From Staphylococcus phage BSwM-KMM1: DNA of 64,000 bases. The stretch is from sequence record OP902294.1; one strand, 5' to 3'. Below are positions 4,781-57,991 of this stretch, piece by piece. The notes beneath the pieces are model-generated. The model had not been told where the DNA came from. It saw only the letters and a list, made by a program, of their open reading frames with translations, and made no database searches. Position 1 is the first letter of the stretch, and every line of letters begins with the position of its first letter. The position numbers and the translations under genes are program-made.

Positions 4781-7499
4781 GGAGGTGAGAACCAATGATA
4801 AGTTCATTTGATAGTATACTACTCGTAATATACCTTATTGTAATACTTGCAGGAGCTATGGCAGTTATTTACTTATTGTTTAAGGTGCTATCTTTTTACT
4901 AGATAAGTTAATGGAATTACTACTAAGTAAAACTACTTTAGATGTAGAAGTATGTGCAATGATAGTGGCTGTTATTAGTACAATAGCATTTGTAATTGCG
5001 TTACTTTTAATATGGGTATATGCAAATAATATTTCAGTGTAAGGAGTTTTAGAATGGATTTTAACGATTTTATAAACAATGAAGCAGATAGAGTCGGAAA
5101 ACCTAAACCTAAGAAGAAGGTAGATAAAGAGTTACCTTCTTCTACTCCTATTGAGGAGAGAGAACAAAGGTTAAAAAGATACGAGAGAAATCACTATATA
5201 TTGATTTAAGGAGAAAAAGAAATGAGTAAAGTACTTTACAAAGACACGTATAGAGATTATACTATAGTTGTAAGATTAGCAGGAACAATTATTGTTACAG
5301 AGATTAACAAAAAGCATCGAACAGAATTCACACCTATTATCTATGATAATGGTAAGGAAGGTGTAAGACTTACATTGAAGGTAGGTACAGAGGAACTAGG
5401 TATGAAAGATTTACGAGCATTCACCAAAGAGTTAGCAACAGCACAATCAGCAATAGAATATTTTAATAAAAAACTTTATCTAAAAGGGTTGACAGATGAA
5501 ACATTGTAGTGTATAGTAAAGGTATAAATAAAATAAAGAAAAGAGGAATGGTTATTATGTTATTAGGAATTTTATGGTTTATATGGGGATTTGTATCTTA
5601 CTTTGTAGTAATGCTTGGAGTGGAGTTTTATAAAGACAAATGGATGCCAGGAGTTATTGGAGCAGGAGCAGTATTACTATTCTTGTTTTGGGTTATGAAA
5701 TCTATCCATAACGCTATGACAGTAGTATACTTATACTAGGAGGGGAACAGATGATTGATATACTAGTTGTACATTATGAAGACACAGTTAGCAGAGTATT
5801 AAAAGAAACAATTGAAACTATAAAGCAACGATTAGTTGATGAGCACGGTCTTGTTAAAATGACAGTAACGGAGCTTACTGGAGAGAATATAGAAAGTAAG
5901 TTTAATGACTATAATATCGTTATTGCTAAGGTTGAGGAAGATAACCATTATACTGTTCACCATTTTAAAGAAAATGCAAAATTGATTATAGATATTCCAG
6001 TATCATATTTAGATATTTATGAGGGGACTGGTTGGGATATTGACACTCCAGTAGACATGTTATATAAACACCCTGATTTTGTAGATACTATAGATGAATT
6101 AAATGAAGATTTAATGTTATAAGGAGGAAATAAAATGTTAAATGAAAAGCTAAAAAACTTAGAAGATACGAAAGTATATTTGATTAATGGTATTGCTAGT
6201 CTCTTAAACTCAAGTACAGATAACTTGAGTAAGGTATTCTTTGATGAAGGTGATATTAGAATTGTAAGTGGTGATACAAAGGCAGTAGAGGTTATTGATA
6301 ATCTAGTTCATCCACATTCAGGACGTTTACCTATTAAAACAACAGAACGTATTGCACTCGGCAGATTAACAGATGCTTTGCAGTTTGTTATTTCAGAAAT
6401 AGAAGTTACTAAGGATAAAATTATAGATGAAGAAAATGAATCTTACATTGATTTTATGATGGAAGATTGGGATTGGGATTAGTACCTATGGACTTACTAA
6501 CAATTGCTTCTGTTGCTTTTATAGCTGTAGTCGTTATTGATTTACTTAATGCCGATATGAGCTATACGTTAACTGGTACTGCAATATTAATAAATATTTG
6601 GGCAGGTTTTTATGGGTGGTTCTTTTTACTACAGGCAGGTATGTTACTTTTCCTACTCTTAGCTAGAAAAGTTAAAGATGATAGAGAGTCAATACTATAC
6701 TCCAGTGCTTCATTAATATGCGCATTAGGAATGATAATAAATCTTTTTACAATATCTTAAAAATAAGTGTTGACATCTTCATAGTTATATATTATACTAA
6801 GTATATAACAAGTACAGGAGATGATTAATATGAGTAAAGAAACAATCAGAAGACAATTTTCAAATGCAATAGAGATTTTAGCAACAACTAAAGAGTGGTG
6901 GAACTTCCCTAAGAACTTCAGTACAAACAAAGAATTCAAAATTAAAAGTTTTAAAAATGACACACTTGTATTTGAAGTTAGGGAAGGTAGTATGAATCTA
7001 GGAAGTTTTGTAGTATTTACAAATATTGACTTTGATTATGGTAAGCTAGAAGGAACTTCAACACAATATATGATTAACTACTTTGCTAAGAAAGTAGTCC
7101 GTGATATGTATAGCTATCATAAGATACAATTAAAATAGGAGGTGAAATTATGAGAGATGAACTAAAACCCTTTAATAGAAAGCAGGTGAATGTTAAAGGG
7201 TACTTAGATGATGTTAAGTATTCAAAACGTAGAAGACATAAAGGTAATCAACATGGTTGTGTGAGAATAACAGTTACAGATGTAAGTATTAATGGAATAT
7301 CAATTGACCACGTTAATATTGAAGTAGGTATTTCATTCTATGAAAAGTTAAGAGAACTTAAAGGAGAAAGAATTCAATTTGTAGGTACAGTTTACAAGTA
7401 TGTTAAACATGCTAGAGGGTATAAAGGTAAAATTAAAGGATTTTATAAAGAGGATTATAGCGTAACTTTAGATAAGAAGTTACAGAAGGAGGAAAAATA

Positions 7500-25850: not shown

Positions 25851-26123
25851 ATGATACTAGAAATAGAAACTAAACCAGTTAAAACATTAAAAGCAATTAA
25901 AGACGATACTAGAAATATTAAAAATAGTATTGCAAGTCATTTAGGATTAGATAGGGAACAATTTAAATTATCCAATGGTTTAATAACTTTAAAAGGTTAT
26001 TCAGAAGAATTTAAATGTTGGTATAATTTAACTAGTACAATAGGTAATTTTCCTAAATATTTAAAATCAGAATCATACAATGAATATAAATTATATTGTA
26101 ATGTAGAATTAAAAACTAAATAA
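25851..26123 (+). CDS. hypothetical protein
   Basis: 90-aa ORF. Confidence 0.4.
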   Translation: MILEIETKPVKTLKAIKDDTRNIKNSIASHLGLDREQFKLSNGLITLKGYSEEFKCWYNLTSTIGNFPKYLKSESYNEYKLYCNVELKTK

Positions 26124-26231
26124 TTAAATAAAAAATTATAGAATTCCCTGGGATTAAATTCCTAGGGATTTTTATTTGTTTTAATTTATATAAAAAATTA
26201 TTTAATAAATAAATTAGTGTAAAATTGACTG

Positions 26232-26261
26232 TTGACAAGATGTAGTAAAAAATGGTATAAT
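26232..26261 (+). promoter_or_regulatory. consensus sigma-A-type promoter (TTGACA-18-TATAAT, TGn-extended) facing a convergent twin
   Basis: ttgacaagatgtagtaaaaaatggtataat; no ORF downstream. Confidence 0.6.
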
Positions 26262-26331
26262 GAAGTGAACGATAATTTTAGTATAAAAAATTATTATATA
26301 AAAAATTATATAAAAGATACCCATCACTTCA

Positions 26332-26360
26332 ATTATATCAAAATTGCCCCCACTTGTCAA
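26332..26360 (-). promoter_or_regulatory. perfect consensus promoter on the minus strand (TTGACA-17-TATAAT), convergent with 26232
   Basis: minus strand reads ttgacaagtgggggcaattttgatataat. Confidence 0.6.
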
Positions 26361-26394
26361 TACATAAATTAAAAATATTTTTAAAAATAATGCT

Positions 26395-26423
26395 TGACAA
26401 ACATTGAAAAATAGCGTATAATT
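26395..26423 (+). promoter_or_regulatory. consensus promoter (TTGACA-17-TATAAT)
   Basis: ttgacaaacattgaaaaatagcgtataat. Confidence 0.6.
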
Positions 26424-26564
26424 AAAGTGAGACGACTTTTTTATATATAAAAAGTTTTTGTATTCTTAAATTATTATATAAAAAATTTATATTAAATGAT
26501 TTTAGGTGGCTCTTTCCCGTTACCCCTCTTGGGCAACCCTGGTAGTTATCTTTACTACACTTAT

Positions 26565-26593
26565 AGTATATCAATAAATAGCAATAATGTCAA
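26565..26593 (-). promoter_or_regulatory. promoter on the minus strand (TTGACA-17-TATACT), convergent with 26395
   Basis: minus strand reads ttgacattattgctatttattgatatact. Confidence 0.5.
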
Positions 26594-26918
26594 TACTTTT
26601 ATTCAAAAAAGTTTTTTAAATTAATTTCAATAAACCTATTGACTTATGTTTCTTTCTATAGTAATATATAGGTATACCAACAAGGGAGGCAATACAAATG
26701 TTAAAATTTAAATGGAAAAACAAAACAATCAAATCAACTCAAAAAACGGATAACATTCTTTTACTTATTATAGGTGGTTTAGTTGCATCAATCACGCCTA
26801 AACTTGTAAATTGGTTTTTACTACTACAAGATAACATAAATATTTTTTAAGATAACTATTGACAACTTAGAAACAACGTGTTAATATTAATATATACCAA
26901 ATGAGAGGAATTGATGAA

Positions 26919-28418: not shown

Positions 28419-28515
28419 TTTTAAAATAGGGCTTGACTTCCAAGCCCTACCATGTTATTATTAAATTGTAAGGTAATCAAGCACAACGACAAAAAACGAA
28501 AAGGAATTGATGAAA

Positions 28516-28833: not shown

Positions 28834-28919
28834 TTTTAAAATAGGGCTTGACTTCCAAGCCCTAGCATGTTATTATTAAGATAGTTAAAAAATACAAATC
28901 AGAAAAGGAATTGATGAAA

Positions 28920-29381: not shown

Positions 29382-29391
29382 ATTAGGGCTT

Positions 29392-29420
29392 GACAAATGT
29401 ACGAAAAAATGAGATAATGA
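29392..29420 (+). promoter_or_regulatory. promoter (TTGACA-17-GATAAT) facing a convergent consensus promoter
   Basis: ttgacaaatgtacgaaaaaatgagataat; transcript would begin gaagtga... Confidence 0.55.
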
Positions 29421-29491
29421 AGTGATGACTTTTTTCGTATAAAAATAATATTATATAAAAAATTATAGAGTTTTTAGGGCTCCACCTCCAT

Positions 29492-29520
29492 TATACCAAT
29501 TTTGCTCCCACTTGTCAATA
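29492..29520 (-). promoter_or_regulatory. perfect consensus promoter on the minus strand (TTGACA-17-TATAAT)
   Basis: minus strand reads ttgacaagtgggagcaaaattggtataat, then ggaggtgga. Confidence 0.6.
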
Positions 29521-29553
29521 CTTAAATTAATTAAAAAGTTTATAAAAAGTGTT

Positions 29554-29582
29554 GACATTTCTTACAATCCATAGTATAATAT
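29554..29582 (+). promoter_or_regulatory. perfect consensus promoter (TTGACA-17-TATAAT); drives ~85 nt of G-rich noncoding RNA
   Basis: ttgacatttcttacaatccatagtataat. Confidence 0.6.
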
Positions 29583-29667
29583 AGATATAAGGTTAAGGAG
29601 CCCAAGACCAAAGAAGGGGTTTCGGGGGAGTACGTCCTTTTTTAAAAAAATAACCGTCCACCTCCAT

Positions 29668-29696
29668 TATATAATAATTCCTACATATTGTCAATA
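29668..29696 (-). promoter_or_regulatory. perfect consensus promoter on the minus strand, convergent with 29554
   Basis: minus strand reads ttgacaatatgtaggaattattatataat, then ggaggtggacgg. Confidence 0.6.
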
Positions 29697-30530: not shown

Positions 30531-30609
30531 AAAAATCTAAATAAGGGGTTGACACTTAACCCCTTAGATGTTATTATTAATATATACTAAAGAAAAGGAA
30601 TTGATAAAA

Positions 30610-35761: not shown

Positions 35762-36023
35762 TAGAAAGAACTCCTATATACATTAGAGTTCTCTAAATAA
35801 TCATTATGTAACGTGTGCCTTGAACTCATAAACTCCGGCACTCCCTAAGTTTTGGGAATAGTTTTGTTTACTTGAGGACATAATATAGCATCTGTAGCCT
35901 TATGTATAACATACCGACTAACCTGTTACTGTGGCATGTGTAGGCTCTAGAAACCCTAGTTTTTATATCTTAACCTTTCATTAGATATATCAGGTACTTT
36001 TAATATGTAATTATAGATAATAC

Positions 36024-36097
36024 TGGAAGGATTTGAACCTACGCCACAAAGACCACTGTCTCCTGCTCTACCAAACTGAGCTACATGTATTATCTAT
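36024..36097 (-). tRNA. tRNA-like gene (non-canonical; anticodon not resolvable by eye)
   Basis: minus strand reads GTAGCTCAGTTTGGTAGAGC (textbook D-arm) ... GGTTCAAATCC (T-loop) ... CCA; I could not fold a canonical anticodon arm. Confidence 0.35.
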
Positions 36098-36196: not shown

Positions 36197-36621
36197 ACTA
36201 TGTATTAGCTCACACCTACGTAAGGCAATGAGCTTAGTTATTTAGATACTGGAGTTGGAAGGGTATTACCACTCAGAATTAGCAGTCAGATACAAAGCCT
36301 CTGCCGGGCAACATACGGTATCTCTCGTACATCACTATTACAGTATACCACAAAGTATATTCCGTGTCAAGTTAATTTATCAATTTAATATATAAATTCT
36401 CCCTATATATTACTCCTGAACACCGATAAGATTTTTAAGTTTGGCTATAACTTCCTCTTCTGTTTGGTAAGAAAAGACTCCTGTAATGTGTTCATAGTTA
36501 CCTACAATCTCATAATAACCTTCATAATAATCTACTAAATACGAGTTATTAAGTAAATTTAATCCTCCATCTCTATAACTAAAGTTAATGTTATAGTCCA
36601 TTAAAAACGCTACAATATTCT

Positions 36622-56904: not shown

Positions 56905-56933
56905 AGTATAACATAATATATATTATTTGTCAA
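56905..56933 (-). promoter_or_regulatory. promoter (TTGACA-17-TATACT) driving the ~1 kb leader toward the tRNAs
   Basis: minus strand reads ttgacaaataatatattatgttatact. Confidence 0.5.
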
Positions 56934-57311: not shown

Positions 57312-57991
57312 AATTATCAATTCCTTTTCTTGTTTTATTTGATAGTTTAACTATATACTATATTGATAAATAAGTCAACAGTTTTATATAAAAAAGTTTA
57401 ATATTTTTGAAGAATCCTTTCATATCAGTACTTACAGAGAAAAAGTACGTATTTAGAAAATAAGGAGTACTCCTATTAAATATATTTATATTCTGATATT
57501 AGTAATTAATAATATTAAATATATAATTATAATTAACAAGAACAGAAAAACTATTATTCTGAATAAGTATCAAATATATTTAAAGTAAAATCCTTTCATA
57601 TCAGTACTTACAGAGAAAAAGTACGTATTTAGAAAATAAGGAAGTCCCTTATATCTATATATATATATATTACTATTAATAATTATTATCTATATTATAT
57701 ATATATATATTTAACGTTGGAGTCAACAATGATATAAATAAAAAGTGACTACTTAAAGTCACTCAATAATTAAAATACTAATTTAAAAGACTCAATTCTT
57801 TTCGGATTAATATAAACCTGAGGTGAAGTATTACTACTTTCAGTAAATACTTTAATTGATATAGAATCAGCACCACTAATCATATAATCTATATCTTGTC
57901 TACTAAATTTCTTTTCATCAGTAGATACTAAATAATACTTAGCTCCACTTGACATTGTTATTTCTACATGTTTTGACATCTACAATCTCTC

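What the first reader, a model, noticed from the sequence alone, without database searches (positions are those of the whole stretch)
26225..26365. Face-to-face consensus promoters with no ORF between them (module A)
A plus-strand TTGACA-18-TATAAT promoter and a minus-strand TTGACA-17-TATAAT promoter point at each other about 60 bp apart. Both predicted transcripts start with tgaagtga, so the interval is a near-palindrome (gaagtgaacga...atcacttc). The TATAAAAAATTAT motif is repeated within the overlap. No protein can be encoded. The arrangement predicts fully complementary short RNAs, transcriptional collision, or both. It resembles the convergent-promoter switches of P2/186-type phages, which is unexpected in a virulent phage's early region.
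Basis: seen in the sequence. Interest (0 to 1): 0.6.

Follow-up and report, generated by a model that had tools for sequence, protein, structure and literature searches.

The report
Head-on early promoter pair, Kayvirus repeat
Two perfect host-type promoters really do face each other with no gene between them in the early region of this Staphylococcus phage; the pair is one copy of a small conserved non-coding unit that also exists, in other copies, with a small RNA gene inside it, and what it does is untested.

Summary
A plus-strand TTGACA-18-TATAAT (26232-26261) and a minus-strand TTGACA-17-TATAAT (26360-26332) face each other. The -10 hexamers are 70 bp apart, and the predicted start sites about 58 bp apart. 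Perfect 12/12 promoters number 12 in the window against 0.18 expected.

The window is a Kayvirus-like Staphylococcus myophage, and the site lies in the long terminal repeat between a TreK-like ORF and TreN.

The pair is one copy of a conserved, polar unit: P(+), GAAGTGA discriminator, a 38-nt all-AT element, then P(-). I found 18 copies, including a paralogue at 29390-29518. They come from Kayvirus, Baoshanvirus and Sepunavirus records, and the gap is always 70-75 bp. Hexamers and the AT element are 86-100% conserved; spacers are about 50%.

The minus promoter belongs to a 180-bp bidirectional-promoter cassette (P2/P3). It is bounded by 23-nt direct repeats and is absent from phage K.

In K-type alleles the same skeleton encloses a structured minus-strand small RNA (published snc002). 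Module A therefore looks like an allele of that locus with no RNA body, making only short complementary RNAs.

A 186/P2-type switch is not supported, and the function is unproven. GAAGTGA is the discriminator, not the transcript start.

The parts
26145..26168 (+). Intrinsic terminator hairpin of the upstream TreK-like ORF (25851-26123). The stem is palindromic. It is the first GC hairpin that minus-strand transcripts from P2 or P4 would meet.
   Evidence: 9-pair stem, 5 GC pairs, T-run. Annotated as a terminator at the homologous place in phage K.
26232..26261 (+). P1(+): TTGACA-18-TATAAT with an extended -10 TG. Resident promoter of the locus, present in nearly all relatives including phage K.
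   Evidence: The -35 is invariant and the -10 is 86% identical in 18 copies, while the spacer is 52%. It is not listed in any of the three published K-type promoter tables.
26262..26268 (+). Discriminator GAAGTGA of P1. Predicted +1 is at about 26267-26268.
   Evidence: 94% identity across copies. The +1 position relative to the -10 is taken from Kornienko 2020 (PMC7698491).
26276..26311 (+). Central all-AT element: T-run, AGTAT, A-run, then ATTATATAAAAAATTATAT. It contains two TATAAAAAATTAT copies (26282-26294, 26297-26309) and always has the same orientation relative to P(+).
   Evidence: 92% identity over 38 alignment columns, against about 50% for both flanks. It is the fourth least stable 40-mer of the window. 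There is no significant RNA fold. On the minus strand it reads as an AU hairpin plus U-runs, and the 3' end of K snc002 (5022) falls there.
26289..26311 (+). Left copy of the 23-nt direct repeat AATTATTATATAAAAAATTATAT that bounds the 180-bp cassette indel.
   Evidence: alignment of window, EW36 and RODI against V1SA15 and K.
26322..26331 (-). Discriminator of P2(-), TGAAGTGATG on the minus strand. Predicted +1 is at about 26325.
26332..26360 (-). P2(-): TTGACA-17-TATAAT, the left arm of the bidirectional cassette. It belongs to the same promoter family as the active HNH-endonuclease promoter of phage K and 515A1 (TATAAT GGAAGTGATA).
   Evidence: The -10 is 98% and the -35 is 93% identical across copies. 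The p13 promoter is RNA-seq supported in 515A1 and K.
26369..26384 (.). 16-bp perfect palindrome TTAAAAATATTTTTAA, centred between the two -35 hexamers of P2 and P3. Probably a shared upstream (UP-like) region.
   Evidence: Sequence, self-hit, invariant in 12 phages.
26394..26422 (+). P3(+): TTGACA-17-TATAAT, the right arm of the cassette. It points into the module B small RNA gene in antisense. An AU hairpin plus U-run follows at 26435-26462.
26469..26492 (+). Right copy of the direct repeat (AATTATTATATAAAAAATTTATAT). It is also the 3' stop region of the minus-strand small RNA.
26470..26593 (-). Module B: small RNA gene with promoter P4(-) TTGACA-17-TATACT (26593-26565) and body about 26558-26470. 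The window carries the short-form allele.
   Evidence: The phage K homologue is snc002.
29390..29518 (.). Paralogous face-to-face unit (A2): P(+) TTGACA-17-GATAAT and P(-) TTGACA-17-TATAAT, with a 71-bp gap and the same central AT element.
   Evidence: 77% identity over 161 nt to module A.
29552..29694 (.). Second convergent pair directly after A2: P(+) 29552-29580 and P(-) 29694-29666, with an 85-bp gap. This repeats the nested P> <P P> <P layout.

Best explanation
Module A is a genuine pair of host sigma-A (early) promoters. It is one copy of a conserved, polar, non-coding unit of Twortvirinae terminal repeats. The unit reads: an antisense promoter P(+); a G-rich discriminator; a 38-nt all-AT element; a variable body of 0-110 nt; and a minus-strand promoter P(-).

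In K-type alleles the body is a structured small RNA (snc002 and its relatives), and the AT element is where that RNA ends. In module A and its paralogue A2 the body is only 10-16 nt. The unit is then a small-RNA locus with no RNA body, consisting of promoter, stop zone and opposing promoter.

In this phage the head-on geometry exists because a 180-bp bidirectional-promoter cassette (P2 leftward, P3 rightward, sharing a palindromic upstream region) lies between two direct copies of the AT element, inside the older convergent pair P1/P4.

Expected behaviour (inferred, not shown):
- Both promoters fire as soon as the DNA enters the cell.
- Open complexes at both can coexist, because their footprints end about 16 bp apart.
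- An elongating polymerase meets the opposing one after about 20-25 nt.
- The output is therefore mainly very short, mutually complementary, AU-rich RNAs. Read-through is limited in both directions: towards TreN on the plus strand, and into the TreK-like ORF in antisense on the minus strand.
- The unit would act as an antisense and interference buffer around the small RNA locus.

Shown: the promoters, the conservation pattern, the cassette indel, the paralogy, and the absence of coding. Inferred: promoter activity, transcript lengths, interference, and any benefit to the phage.
For: Promoters are not chance: 12 perfect sites against 0.18 expected.

Selection pattern over 18 copies:
- -35(+) 1.00, -10(+) 0.86, discriminator(+) 0.94.
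- Central element 0.92.
- -10(-) 0.98, -35(-) 0.93.
- Spacers 0.52 and 0.71; flanks of the central element 0.51 and 0.53.

The gap between the -10 hexamers is 70-75 bp in every copy. The copies come from Kayvirus, Baoshanvirus (PSU4), Sepunavirus (phage 110) and unclassified records. A paralogue with the same nested layout lies in the same terminal repeat.

The cassette indel is bounded by 23-nt direct repeats. It is present or absent on both small-RNA backgrounds: window and EW36 against V1SA15, and RODI against K.

K-type loci have the same skeleton: P1(+), the AT element, a minus-strand RNA, then P(-). The RNA body shows two helices with compensatory changes, 100% paired, 0 of 500 shuffles as good, and an invariant G-U pair that fits only the minus strand.

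Stranded RNA-seq of phage K reported a minus-strand RNA, snc002, at 5022-5067, whose 3' end falls at the U-run of the AT element. The promoter family of P2 (TATAAT GGAAGTGATA, p13) is active early in 515A1 and K.

No conserved ORF and no Rfam family.
Against: - No transcript start or end data exist for any phage that carries module A.
- The three published K-type promoter lists do not include P1(+), and the stranded K study reports no plus-strand RNA there. P1 may be weak in vivo, or its product may be too short or unstable to be sequenced.
- The AT element does not fold into a canonical terminator. Minimum free energies are -4 to -6 kcal/mol with z-scores of -1.1 to -1.4, so its role as a stop signal is weakly grounded.
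- Published theory and experiments on convergent promoters say that interference by collision and by the sitting-duck mechanism is smallest for equal-strength promoters placed very close together (65 bp in PMC6593788). Mutual blocking may therefore be modest.
- Module A is missing from phage K and most sequenced kayviruses; only about 15 of 221 matching records carry it. It is dispensable.
- The near-invariance of the P2/P3 cassette could reflect recent spread rather than selection.
Confidence: 0.5

Rival explanations
1. The pair is a neutral by-product of promoter- and motif-mediated modular shuffling. The terminal repeat is a mosaic built by recombination at repeated regulatory sequences, namely promoter cores and the AT punctuation motif. 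The face-to-face pair is what is left when cassettes are inserted or gene bodies are deleted, and it has no function of its own.
For: - The 180-bp indel lies exactly between 23-nt direct repeats.
- Presence and absence are polymorphic among close relatives, and module A is missing from phage K.
- All four combinations of two P1 spacer types and two initial-transcribed-sequence types exist (window, 355Saur, Stab22, 357Saur). This shows crossovers inside the conserved promoter core.
- HNH endonuclease cassette junctions coincide with -35 regions.
- 'Solo' minus-strand promoters stand where K has the HNH gene (Stab21, YCP, PG-2021_19, 184DA).
- Composite hairpin/promoter motifs like T4 PeSLs occur in the same repeat.
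Against: - Two paralogues only 77% identical, and copies in three genera, keep both hexamer pairs, the discriminator, the 38-nt element and the 70-75 bp spacing, while spacers and flanks drift to about 50%.
- Useless consensus promoters facing productive early transcription units should decay or be selected against.
Confidence: 0.28
2. The unit is a transcription-activated replication origin or DNA unwinding element. Strong promoters on both sides of an extremely AT-rich segment make R-loop primers for bidirectional leading-strand synthesis, as at the T4 uvsY and gene 34 origins or the T7 primary origin.
For: - Promoter followed directly by a 98% AT segment, which is the fourth least stable 40-mer in 64 kb. 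The A2 and B elements are also in the top eight.
- The central element is conserved as DNA and has no RNA-fold signal.
- The convergent geometry fits two opposed primers.
- No origin has been defined for kayviruses. This last point, and the T4 and T7 comparison, rest on my own knowledge and were not checked here.
Against: - Module A is dispensable, though K keeps the P1/AT element/P4 version.
- The promoters are of the early host type, and terminal-repeat transcription peaks at 2-5 min and then falls, before bulk replication.
- More AT-rich segments exist elsewhere (57474-57720).
- No initiator-binding repeats were seen.
- The SPO1 terminal redundancy has no such pairs.
Confidence: 0.07
3. The unit is a polymerase sink or decoy. 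Clusters of consensus promoters that lead nowhere titrate host sigma-A holoenzyme, or generate local supercoiling domains, as part of host takeover.
For: - Eight consensus or near-consensus promoters without a ribosome-binding site or start codon are packed into two blocks of about 360 and 300 bp.
- They lie in the host-takeover region, which is present twice per genome.
Against: - A few extra sites per genome are negligible against hundreds of host promoters until the phage DNA is amplified. By then early promoters are reported to be shut down (discussion).
- This reading does not explain the polarity, the fixed spacing or the conserved central element.
Confidence: 0.06
4. The pair is a 186/P2-type developmental switch, in which convergent promoters set a bistable choice between two gene sets through asymmetric transcriptional interference and a repressor.
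For: Face-to-face geometry with about 58 bp between predicted starts, close to the spacing used or found in 186/P2 systems.
Against: - There is no gene downstream of P2(-) before the terminator hairpin. Beyond P1(+) lie only further promoters and TreN.
- Both promoters are consensus, so there is no strong/weak asymmetry.
- No repressor gene lies nearby.
- The phage is strictly virulent.
- The pair results from a cassette indel.
Confidence: 0.03
5. A hidden small protein is encoded by the 46-aa or 48-aa ORF that automated pipelines annotate in some relatives.
For: ORFs 26232-26372 (+) and 26214-26360 (-) exist. Homologous stretches are annotated as CDS in CUB-B (gp229) and 184DA (184DA_17).
Against: - Both ORFs start at the TTG of a -35 hexamer, upstream of the transcript starts, with no Shine-Dalgarno sequence.
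- In relatives the reading frames are broken by stops and 1-nt A-run indels.
Confidence: 0.02

Closest known systems
Phage K small non-coding RNA snc002 and its locus in the long terminal repeat (Finstrlova et al. 2022, PMC9241854)
   Same: Same genomic place, between the gp012/TreK-like terminator and TreN. Same P1(+) promoter and same AT element. The minus-strand RNA ends at the U-run of that element. The promoter skeleton is shared with module A.
   Different: Phage K has no module A. There P1(+) faces the small RNA promoter directly, about 140 bp away. The paper lists a 46-nt RNA with no promoter, no antisense promoter and no structure. Module A has the skeleton but almost no RNA body.
Convergent lytic/lysogenic promoters pR-pL of coliphage 186, and P2 Pe-Pc (transcriptional interference; Hao et al. 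2019, PMC6593788)
   Same: Face-to-face sigma-70-type promoters with start sites only tens of bp apart. The transcripts overlap and the polymerases must pass over the opposing promoter.
   Different: In 186 each promoter drives an operon with regulators. The promoter strengths are unequal, which gives 5.6-fold sitting-duck interference, and a repressor flips the state. Here there are no genes and no repressor, the consensus strength is equal on both sides, and the host is a virulent phage.
PeSL mobile regulatory cassettes of T4-type phages (Arbiol et al. 2010, PMC2839356; Comeau et al. 2014, PMC4122927)
   Same: Short repeated cassettes with strong early host-type promoters in a hyperplastic region of non-essential early genes. 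Indels and replacements between close relatives have their junctions in these repeats. True composite hairpin/promoter motifs occur elsewhere in this repeat (28427, 28842, 30542).
   Different: Module A has no GC stem-loop. The junction repeat is the AT motif rather than the promoter/terminator composite. The cassette carries two divergent promoters and no ORF. Mini-circles were not tested.
Cis-antisense promoter pairs around bacterial and phage small RNAs (general class)
   Same: A promoter opposite a small RNA gene whose transcript overlaps the 3' part of the RNA.
   Different: Here the arrangement persists even where the RNA body is reduced to 10-16 nt. It is nested (P> <P P> <P) and duplicated within one terminal repeat.

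Membership tests
186/P2-type convergent-promoter switch | Two face-to-face promoters with overlapping transcripts and start sites tens of bp apart | tested here: met
   Gap of 70 bp between -10 hexamers and a predicted start-to-start distance of 58 bp. For comparison, 65 bp was used for the 186 pR / P2 Pe pair in PMC6593788.
186/P2-type convergent-promoter switch | Each promoter expresses an operon that includes a regulator of the alternative state | tested here: not met
   No translatable ORF lies downstream of P2(-) before hairpin 26168-26145. Downstream of P1(+) come P2, P3, the antisense of the small RNA, and then TreN.
186/P2-type convergent-promoter switch | Unequal promoter strengths, giving directional interference | tested here: not met
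   Both promoters are 12/12 consensus with an extended -10 TG. This is judged by sequence only; strengths were not measured.
186/P2-type convergent-promoter switch | Operators for a repressor overlapping the promoters | tested here: inconclusive
   No repressor gene in the neighbourhood. The only conserved non-promoter sequence is the central AT element, and whether a protein binds it is unknown.
PeSL regulatory cassette (T4-type phages) | Strong sigma-70-like early promoter | tested here: met
PeSL regulatory cassette (T4-type phages) | Promoter fused to a stem-loop that terminates transcription | tested here: not met
   Module A has no GC hairpin. Folds reach -4.3 to -9.3 kcal/mol with z-scores of -1.1 to -2.2. 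Composites do exist elsewhere in the repeat (28427-28461, 28842-28876, 30542-30577).
PeSL regulatory cassette (T4-type phages) | Lies at the junctions of indels or replacements between closely related phages | tested here: met
   The 180-bp indel is bounded by direct repeats. Four-haplotype mosaic across the P1 core. HNH cassette junctions lie at -35 regions.
PeSL regulatory cassette (T4-type phages) | Recombination between copies releases mini-circles that carry ORFs | not testable with these tools
   This needs PCR or sequencing of infected-cell or virion DNA. The cassette carries no ORF.
Kayvirus terminal-repeat small RNA locus (snc002 type) | Same promoter / AT element / promoter skeleton at the same genomic place | tested here: met
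   Alignments.
Kayvirus terminal-repeat small RNA locus (snc002 type) | Structured RNA body supported by covariation | tested here: not met
   Module A has only 10-16 nt between the P2 start and the AT element, and no fold signal. The long-form module B alleles do show covariation.
Kayvirus terminal-repeat small RNA locus (snc002 type) | Transcript detected in infected cells | not testable with these tools
   Only phage K data exist, and K lacks module A.
Intrinsic bidirectional terminator | Stable GC-containing hairpin flanked by an A-tract and a T-tract | tested here: not met
   The central element offers only AU stems of 7-8 pairs. The terminator scan finds nothing between 26168 and 28427 on the plus strand. 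U-runs follow the AU hairpin on the minus strand only.
Transcription-primed origin (T4 uvsY / gene 34 origins, T7 primary origin) | Promoter immediately followed by an AT-rich unwinding element | tested here: met
   98% AT, and the fourth least stable 40-mer of 64 kb. The definition of the family is from my own knowledge.
Transcription-primed origin (T4 uvsY / gene 34 origins, T7 primary origin) | Transcript used as a primer, with replication starting there | not testable with these tools
   Requires replication-intermediate mapping.

The most novel reading that the evidence does not exclude
The 130-bp polar unit, made of a consensus promoter, a conserved 38-nt all-AT element and an opposing consensus promoter with a fixed 70-75 bp spacing, is a selected functional device of Twortvirinae terminal repeats. 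It would not be shuffling debris. Candidate roles are a transcription-primed bidirectional origin or unwinding site, or a dedicated polymerase-collision insulator that makes tiny complementary RNAs. The 180-bp P2/P3 bidirectional-promoter cassette would be a mobile copy of half of it.
Probability: 0.15. Interest if true: 0.7.

Novelty: new variant of a known kind. Interest (0 to 1): 0.45.

Why it matters
Kayviruses (phage K, ISP, 812, phiIPLA-RODI and others) are the main therapeutic phages against Staphylococcus aureus. Their terminal repeats hold the host-takeover programme, yet published promoter maps list only promoters that stand in front of genes.

This work shows that the repeat also holds conserved gene-less promoter units, small RNA genes with opposing antisense promoters, and a short AT 'punctuation' motif at which modules are exchanged.

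If the units are active, three consequences follow:
- They are a source of abundant very short complementary RNAs in the first minutes of infection.
- They are a built-in example of head-on transcription between equal consensus promoters, useful for studying interference in a Gram-positive host.
- They supply compact bidirectional promoter parts for phage engineering.

The result also flags spurious CDS calls in several deposited genomes. If the units are inert, they still mark the recombination joints that generate terminal-repeat diversity.

Tried and rejected
- Rfam, at gathering threshold on the whole window and at E<=1 on 26100-26700: only tRNAs and two chance-level hits.
- RNA folding of both strands of the interval and of longer versions: no significant structure, z from -1.1 to -2.2. 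A structured RNA in module A is rejected.
- Coding: the ORFs start in the -35 hexamers and are not conserved. Rejected.
- Late-promoter reading of the AT motif: the published late -10 motif is TGTTATATTA. By eye, the best match in the unit is TATTATATAA (8 of 10) and lacks the G. Rejected.
- Published promoter and RNA tables for K, 515A1 and SAM1: none mentions P1(+) or convergent pairs.
- Searches for TSS-level data on kayviruses or phiIPLA-RODI found nothing usable.
- The Listeria P100-like multi-omics paper gave no comparable feature.
- The SPO1 terminal redundancy was scanned for close face-to-face promoters and none was found. The unit is therefore not a family-wide Herelleviridae trait.
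- An IMG/VR pattern search with the P1 -10 plus discriminator returned mostly unrelated contigs and was not pursued.
- BLAST of two of the unrelated IMG/VR convergent-pair loci against known phages gave no identification.
- A first regular-expression attempt to extract the small RNAs returned nothing and was redone.
- Protein-homology, structure-prediction and defence-system tools were not used, because the feature is non-coding.
Full report
**1. Where we are**

The 1-kb region around the finding matches 138 Staphylococcus phage records and one Mammaliicoccus phage record at 85-97% identity. The annotated ones are Herelleviridae, subfamily Twortvirinae, mostly genus Kayvirus. In records with mapped ends (Stab21, phage K) the homologous stretch lies inside the long terminal repeat. 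It sits between a small TreK-like ORF with its terminator and the TreN gene. In the window the corresponding features are:
- ORF 25851-26123.
- Terminator hairpin 26145-26168.
- TreN starting at 26698.

**2. The observation**

Both promoters are present exactly as described:
- P1(+): TTGACA 26232-26237, an 18-nt spacer ending TGG, and TATAAT 26256-26261.
- P2(-): TTGACA 26360-26355, a 17-nt spacer, and TATAAT 26337-26332.

Perfect consensus promoters occur 12 times in the window. A first-order Markov model expects 0.18, and the maximum in 300 simulations was 2.

The -10 hexamers are 70 bp apart. Kornienko et al. place +1 six to seven nt after the -10 in kayvirus early promoters. That gives predicted starts at about 26268 and about 26325, 58 bp apart.

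The motif TATAAAAAATTAT occurs twice in the interval. Window-wide, with up to one mismatch, it occurs 12 times against 3.0 expected.

The shared GAAGTGA is real, but it lies between the -10 and +1. It is a discriminator common to one promoter family, not the 5' end of the RNAs.

The two mechanical ORFs across the interval start at the TTG of the -35 hexamers. In relatives they are interrupted by stops or shifted by 1-nt A-run indels. Some deposited genomes annotate them as CDS, which is almost certainly spurious.

**3. The pair is a repeated unit**

A BLAST of module A against the window finds a paralogue at 29390-29548, 77% identical over 161 nt. It has its own P(+) (TTGACA-17-GATAAT) and P(-) (TTGACA-17-TATAAT) and the same central motif.

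Each of the two copies is followed by a second convergent pair:
- 26394(+)/26593(-) after module A.
- 29552(+)/29694(-) after the paralogue.

The layout P> <P P> <P therefore occurs twice in one terminal repeat. None of these eight promoters is followed by a Shine-Dalgarno sequence and a start codon. The other early promoters of the window carry a stereotyped leader and an ATG.

I collected 18 copies of the face-to-face unit from the window and from the following records:
- phiIPLA-RODI, EW36, 355Saur083PP, 357Saur119PP, Stab22, Stab21, O1-102, HMGUsa2 and PG-2021_19.
- PSU4 (Baoshanvirus), JDYN and SAP23.
- Phage 110 (Sepunavirus), PG-2021_35 and S-CoN_Ph13.

The gap between the -10 hexamers is 70-75 bp in all of them. 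Mean pairwise identity by segment is as follows:

| Segment | Identity |
|---|---|
| -35(+) | 1.00 |
| Spacer(+) | 0.52 |
| -10(+) | 0.86 |
| Discriminator(+) | 0.94 |
| Next 7 nt | 0.51 |
| Central AT element (38 columns) | 0.92 |
| Following 10 nt | 0.53 |
| Discriminator(-) | 0.70 |
| -10(-) | 0.98 |
| Spacer(-) | 0.71 |
| -35(-) | 0.93 |

This is the signature of two working promoters plus a conserved central element. The unit is polar, because the AT element always has the same orientation relative to the GAAGTGA promoter.

**4. Why the promoters face each other here**

I aligned the window, EW36 and RODI with V1SA15 and phage K. Module-A phages carry 180 extra bp. The extra segment holds P2(-), a 33-bp spacer containing a perfect 16-bp palindrome (26369-26384), P3(+), and one extra copy of a 23-nt repeat:
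- Left copy: AATTATTATATAAAAAATTATAT, 26289-26311.
- Right copy: the same with one extra T, 26469-26492.

The indel is present or absent on both small-RNA backgrounds: window and EW36 against V1SA15, and RODI against K. It has therefore been gained or lost more than once, or exchanged by recombination. In K-type phages P1(+) directly faces the promoter of a minus-strand small RNA.

The P2/P3 segment is almost invariant in 12 phages whose flanks differ by 10-15%. Two P1 spacer haplotypes and two downstream haplotypes occur in all four combinations, so crossovers happen inside the conserved promoter core.

About 15 of 221 matching Staphylococcus phage records carry module A proper. Most carry only the P1 half.

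**5. Link to a known RNA**

Finstrlova et al. reported a minus-strand small RNA, snc002, at K 5022-5067 in the gp012-gp013 intergenic region. In the K sequence this interval covers the AT element and the start of a GC-rich segment. Its 3' end (5022) abuts the U-run that the AT element presents on the minus strand.

Upstream on that strand lies a TTGACC-17-TATACT promoter, so the full RNA is probably about 110 nt.

The long-form alleles of this RNA come from K, RODI, O1-102, 357Saur119PP, Stab22, PG-2021_19, Stab21 and YCP. They show two crossing helices (a pseudoknot topology) with the following support:
- 100% of 88 cells are paired.
- Six pairs carry compensatory double changes.
- The covariation score is 0.343 against 0.091 in shuffles (0 of 500 as high).
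- Sliding the partner columns drops pairing to 37-53%.
- One invariant G-U pair fits only the minus strand.

The window carries a different short-form allele. The skeleton 'P(+), AT element, body, P(-)' thus encloses a real RNA in module B and in K. In module A and A2 the body is reduced to 10-16 nt.

The promoter family of P2 includes the HNH-endonuclease promoter p13 (TATAAT GGAAGTGATA). RNA-seq supports p13 in 515A1 and K.

**6. How it most likely works**

Shown:
- The promoters, their conservation and the conserved AT element.
- The cassette indel and the paralogy.
- The lack of coding capacity.
- The lack of an RNA fold and of any Rfam match.

Inferred:
- Both promoters fire early.
- Polymerase footprints of -55 to +20 (my own knowledge) would end at about 26288 and 26305, so both promoters can be occupied at once.
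- An elongating enzyme would then meet the opposing complex after about 20-25 nt.
- On the minus strand the AT element reads as a 7-8 pair AU hairpin followed by U-runs, which agrees with the snc002 3' end.
- On the plus strand it is less terminator-like.

The expected products are very short complementary AU-rich RNAs, with limited read-through in both directions.

Three caveats apply:
- The AT element is not a canonical terminator.
- Published work indicates that interference between equal-strength, closely spaced convergent promoters is comparatively small.
- P1(+) appears in none of the published promoter lists, and no plus-strand RNA was reported there.

**7. Rivals**

The strongest rival is that the pair is a neutral scar of modular shuffling. 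It is supported by the indel polymorphism, the mosaic haplotypes, the solo promoters at HNH-less sites, and PeSL-like composite hairpin/promoter motifs nearby (PeSL definition). Against it stands the segment-wise conservation across paralogues and genera.

An origin or unwinding-element reading fits the promoter-plus-AT design and the low duplex stability, but it has no direct support.

A polymerase-sink reading does not explain the polarity or the fixed spacing.

The 186/P2 switch fails on gene content, promoter asymmetry and lifestyle.

**8. Wider distribution**

The SPO1 terminal redundancy has no close face-to-face pairs. Within Herelleviridae I found the unit only in staphylococcal Twortvirinae (Kayvirus, Baoshanvirus, Sepunavirus). 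SPO1 was the only phage from outside that subfamily that I scanned. The Silviavirus Remus gave only a 67-nt match and no such pair in the 5 kb examined.

An exact-pattern scan of IMG/VR for perfect face-to-face pairs with a 66-78 bp gap returned 23 loci, none of them kayvirus-like. Several unrelated families have a GC hairpin exactly in the middle and sit in an intergenic gap of a co-directional gene array. Closely spaced head-on consensus promoters are therefore a recurring, undescribed motif in virulent phage genomes.

**9. Verdict**

The feature is a new variant of known kinds, namely cis-antisense small-RNA loci and promoter-bearing regulatory cassettes. It is moderately interesting (0.45). 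I found no description of it in the literature I could search, and it is easily testable in therapeutic phages.

Noticed in passing
window 26470-26593 (minus strand); alignment A2: This is the module B small RNA gene: promoter TTGACA-17-TATACT at 26593-26565. It is the extended form of phage K snc002. Long-form alleles in eight other phages form two crossing helices (pseudoknot topology). All 88 cells are paired, six pairs carry compensatory changes, and one invariant G-U pair fits only the minus strand. The window carries a different short-form allele. No Rfam family matches.
   Followed up: partly
window 29390-29694: A second nested block of four promoters (29390+, 29518-, 29552+, 29694-) is paralogous to 26232-26593. 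The 85-bp interval 29581-29665 is GC-richer but shows no fold signal (z +0.4 to +0.6). In Stab21 the inner plus-strand promoter and this interval are missing.
   Followed up: partly
window 24505(-), 25065, 25483, 25819, 26127, 26189, 26477, 29321, 32326(-), 44992(-): The 13-nt motif (A/T)ATAAAAAAT(T)TAT acts as intergenic 'punctuation'. It is always co-oriented with the local genes. It sits either just upstream of a ribosome-binding site or between a stop codon and a terminator hairpin, where it supplies the A-tract. It is also the junction repeat of the 180-bp indel.
   Followed up: partly
window 28427-28461, 28842-28876, 30542-30577 (also 10489, 14407): These are composite terminator/promoter motifs. 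The -35 hexamer (TTGACT or TTGACA) lies in or next to the loop of a GC hairpin, and a -10 follows directly. The design matches the PeSL cassettes of T4-type phages.
   Followed up: no
L008 818-1000 (CUB-B gp229); L007 818-991 and 1006-1125 (184DA_17, 184DA_16); L002 1902-2099 (V1SA15): Deposited genomes annotate 'hypothetical protein' CDS across these promoter and small-RNA intervals. For CUB-B gp229 and 184DA_17 the start is the TTG of the -35 hexamer and the frame is not conserved, so these are probably spurious gene calls. I did not check the starts of 184DA_16 or the V1SA15 CDS.
   Followed up: partly
L030 145-274 and 745-875 (S-CoN_Ph13, OR354836.1, filed under Sextaecvirus): Two copies of the kayvirus face-to-face unit lie in inverted orientation about 600 bp apart, at the very end of a 104.6-kb record assigned to a different phage group. 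This is either a transfer between groups or a chimeric or misassigned assembly.
   Followed up: no
L033 3840-3964, L038 1434-1558, L041 81-215, L054 2769-2893; L037 5728-5854, L040, L043; L042, L045, L049: Unrelated uncultivated phage contigs (GC 43-46%) carry perfect face-to-face consensus promoters 66-77 bp apart, with a short GC hairpin exactly in the middle. In the five loci I inspected (L033, L037, L038, L041, L042) they lie in an intergenic gap of a co-directional gene array. BLAST of L033 and L037 found no cultured relative.
   Followed up: partly
L003 2151-2169 with 2133-2161 (phage K); L004 about 1470-1500 (RODI): In phages that carry the HNH endonuclease, the endonuclease terminator hairpin (AGAAAAGG-GTTGA-CCTTTTCT) contains the -35 (TTGACC) of the small RNA promoter. 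HNH-less phages (Stab21, YCP, PG-2021_19, 184DA) keep a 'solo' copy of the endonuclease-type promoter followed only by the AT motif.
   Followed up: partly
window 36019-36090 (minus strand): Rfam reports a tRNA just above threshold (33.9 bits against a 29-bit gathering score) that ARAGORN does not call. A near-consensus promoter lies 280 bp upstream at 36370(-). This may be the pseudo-tRNA and long non-coding RNA region described for kayviruses.
   Followed up: no
window 57474-57720: This is the least stable DNA of the whole window: 95-98% AT with TA-rich repeats. It lies next to two near-consensus minus-strand promoters at 56933 and 57067 that have no following ORF. It probably corresponds to the long non-coding RNA region upstream of the tRNA genes.
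   Followed up: no
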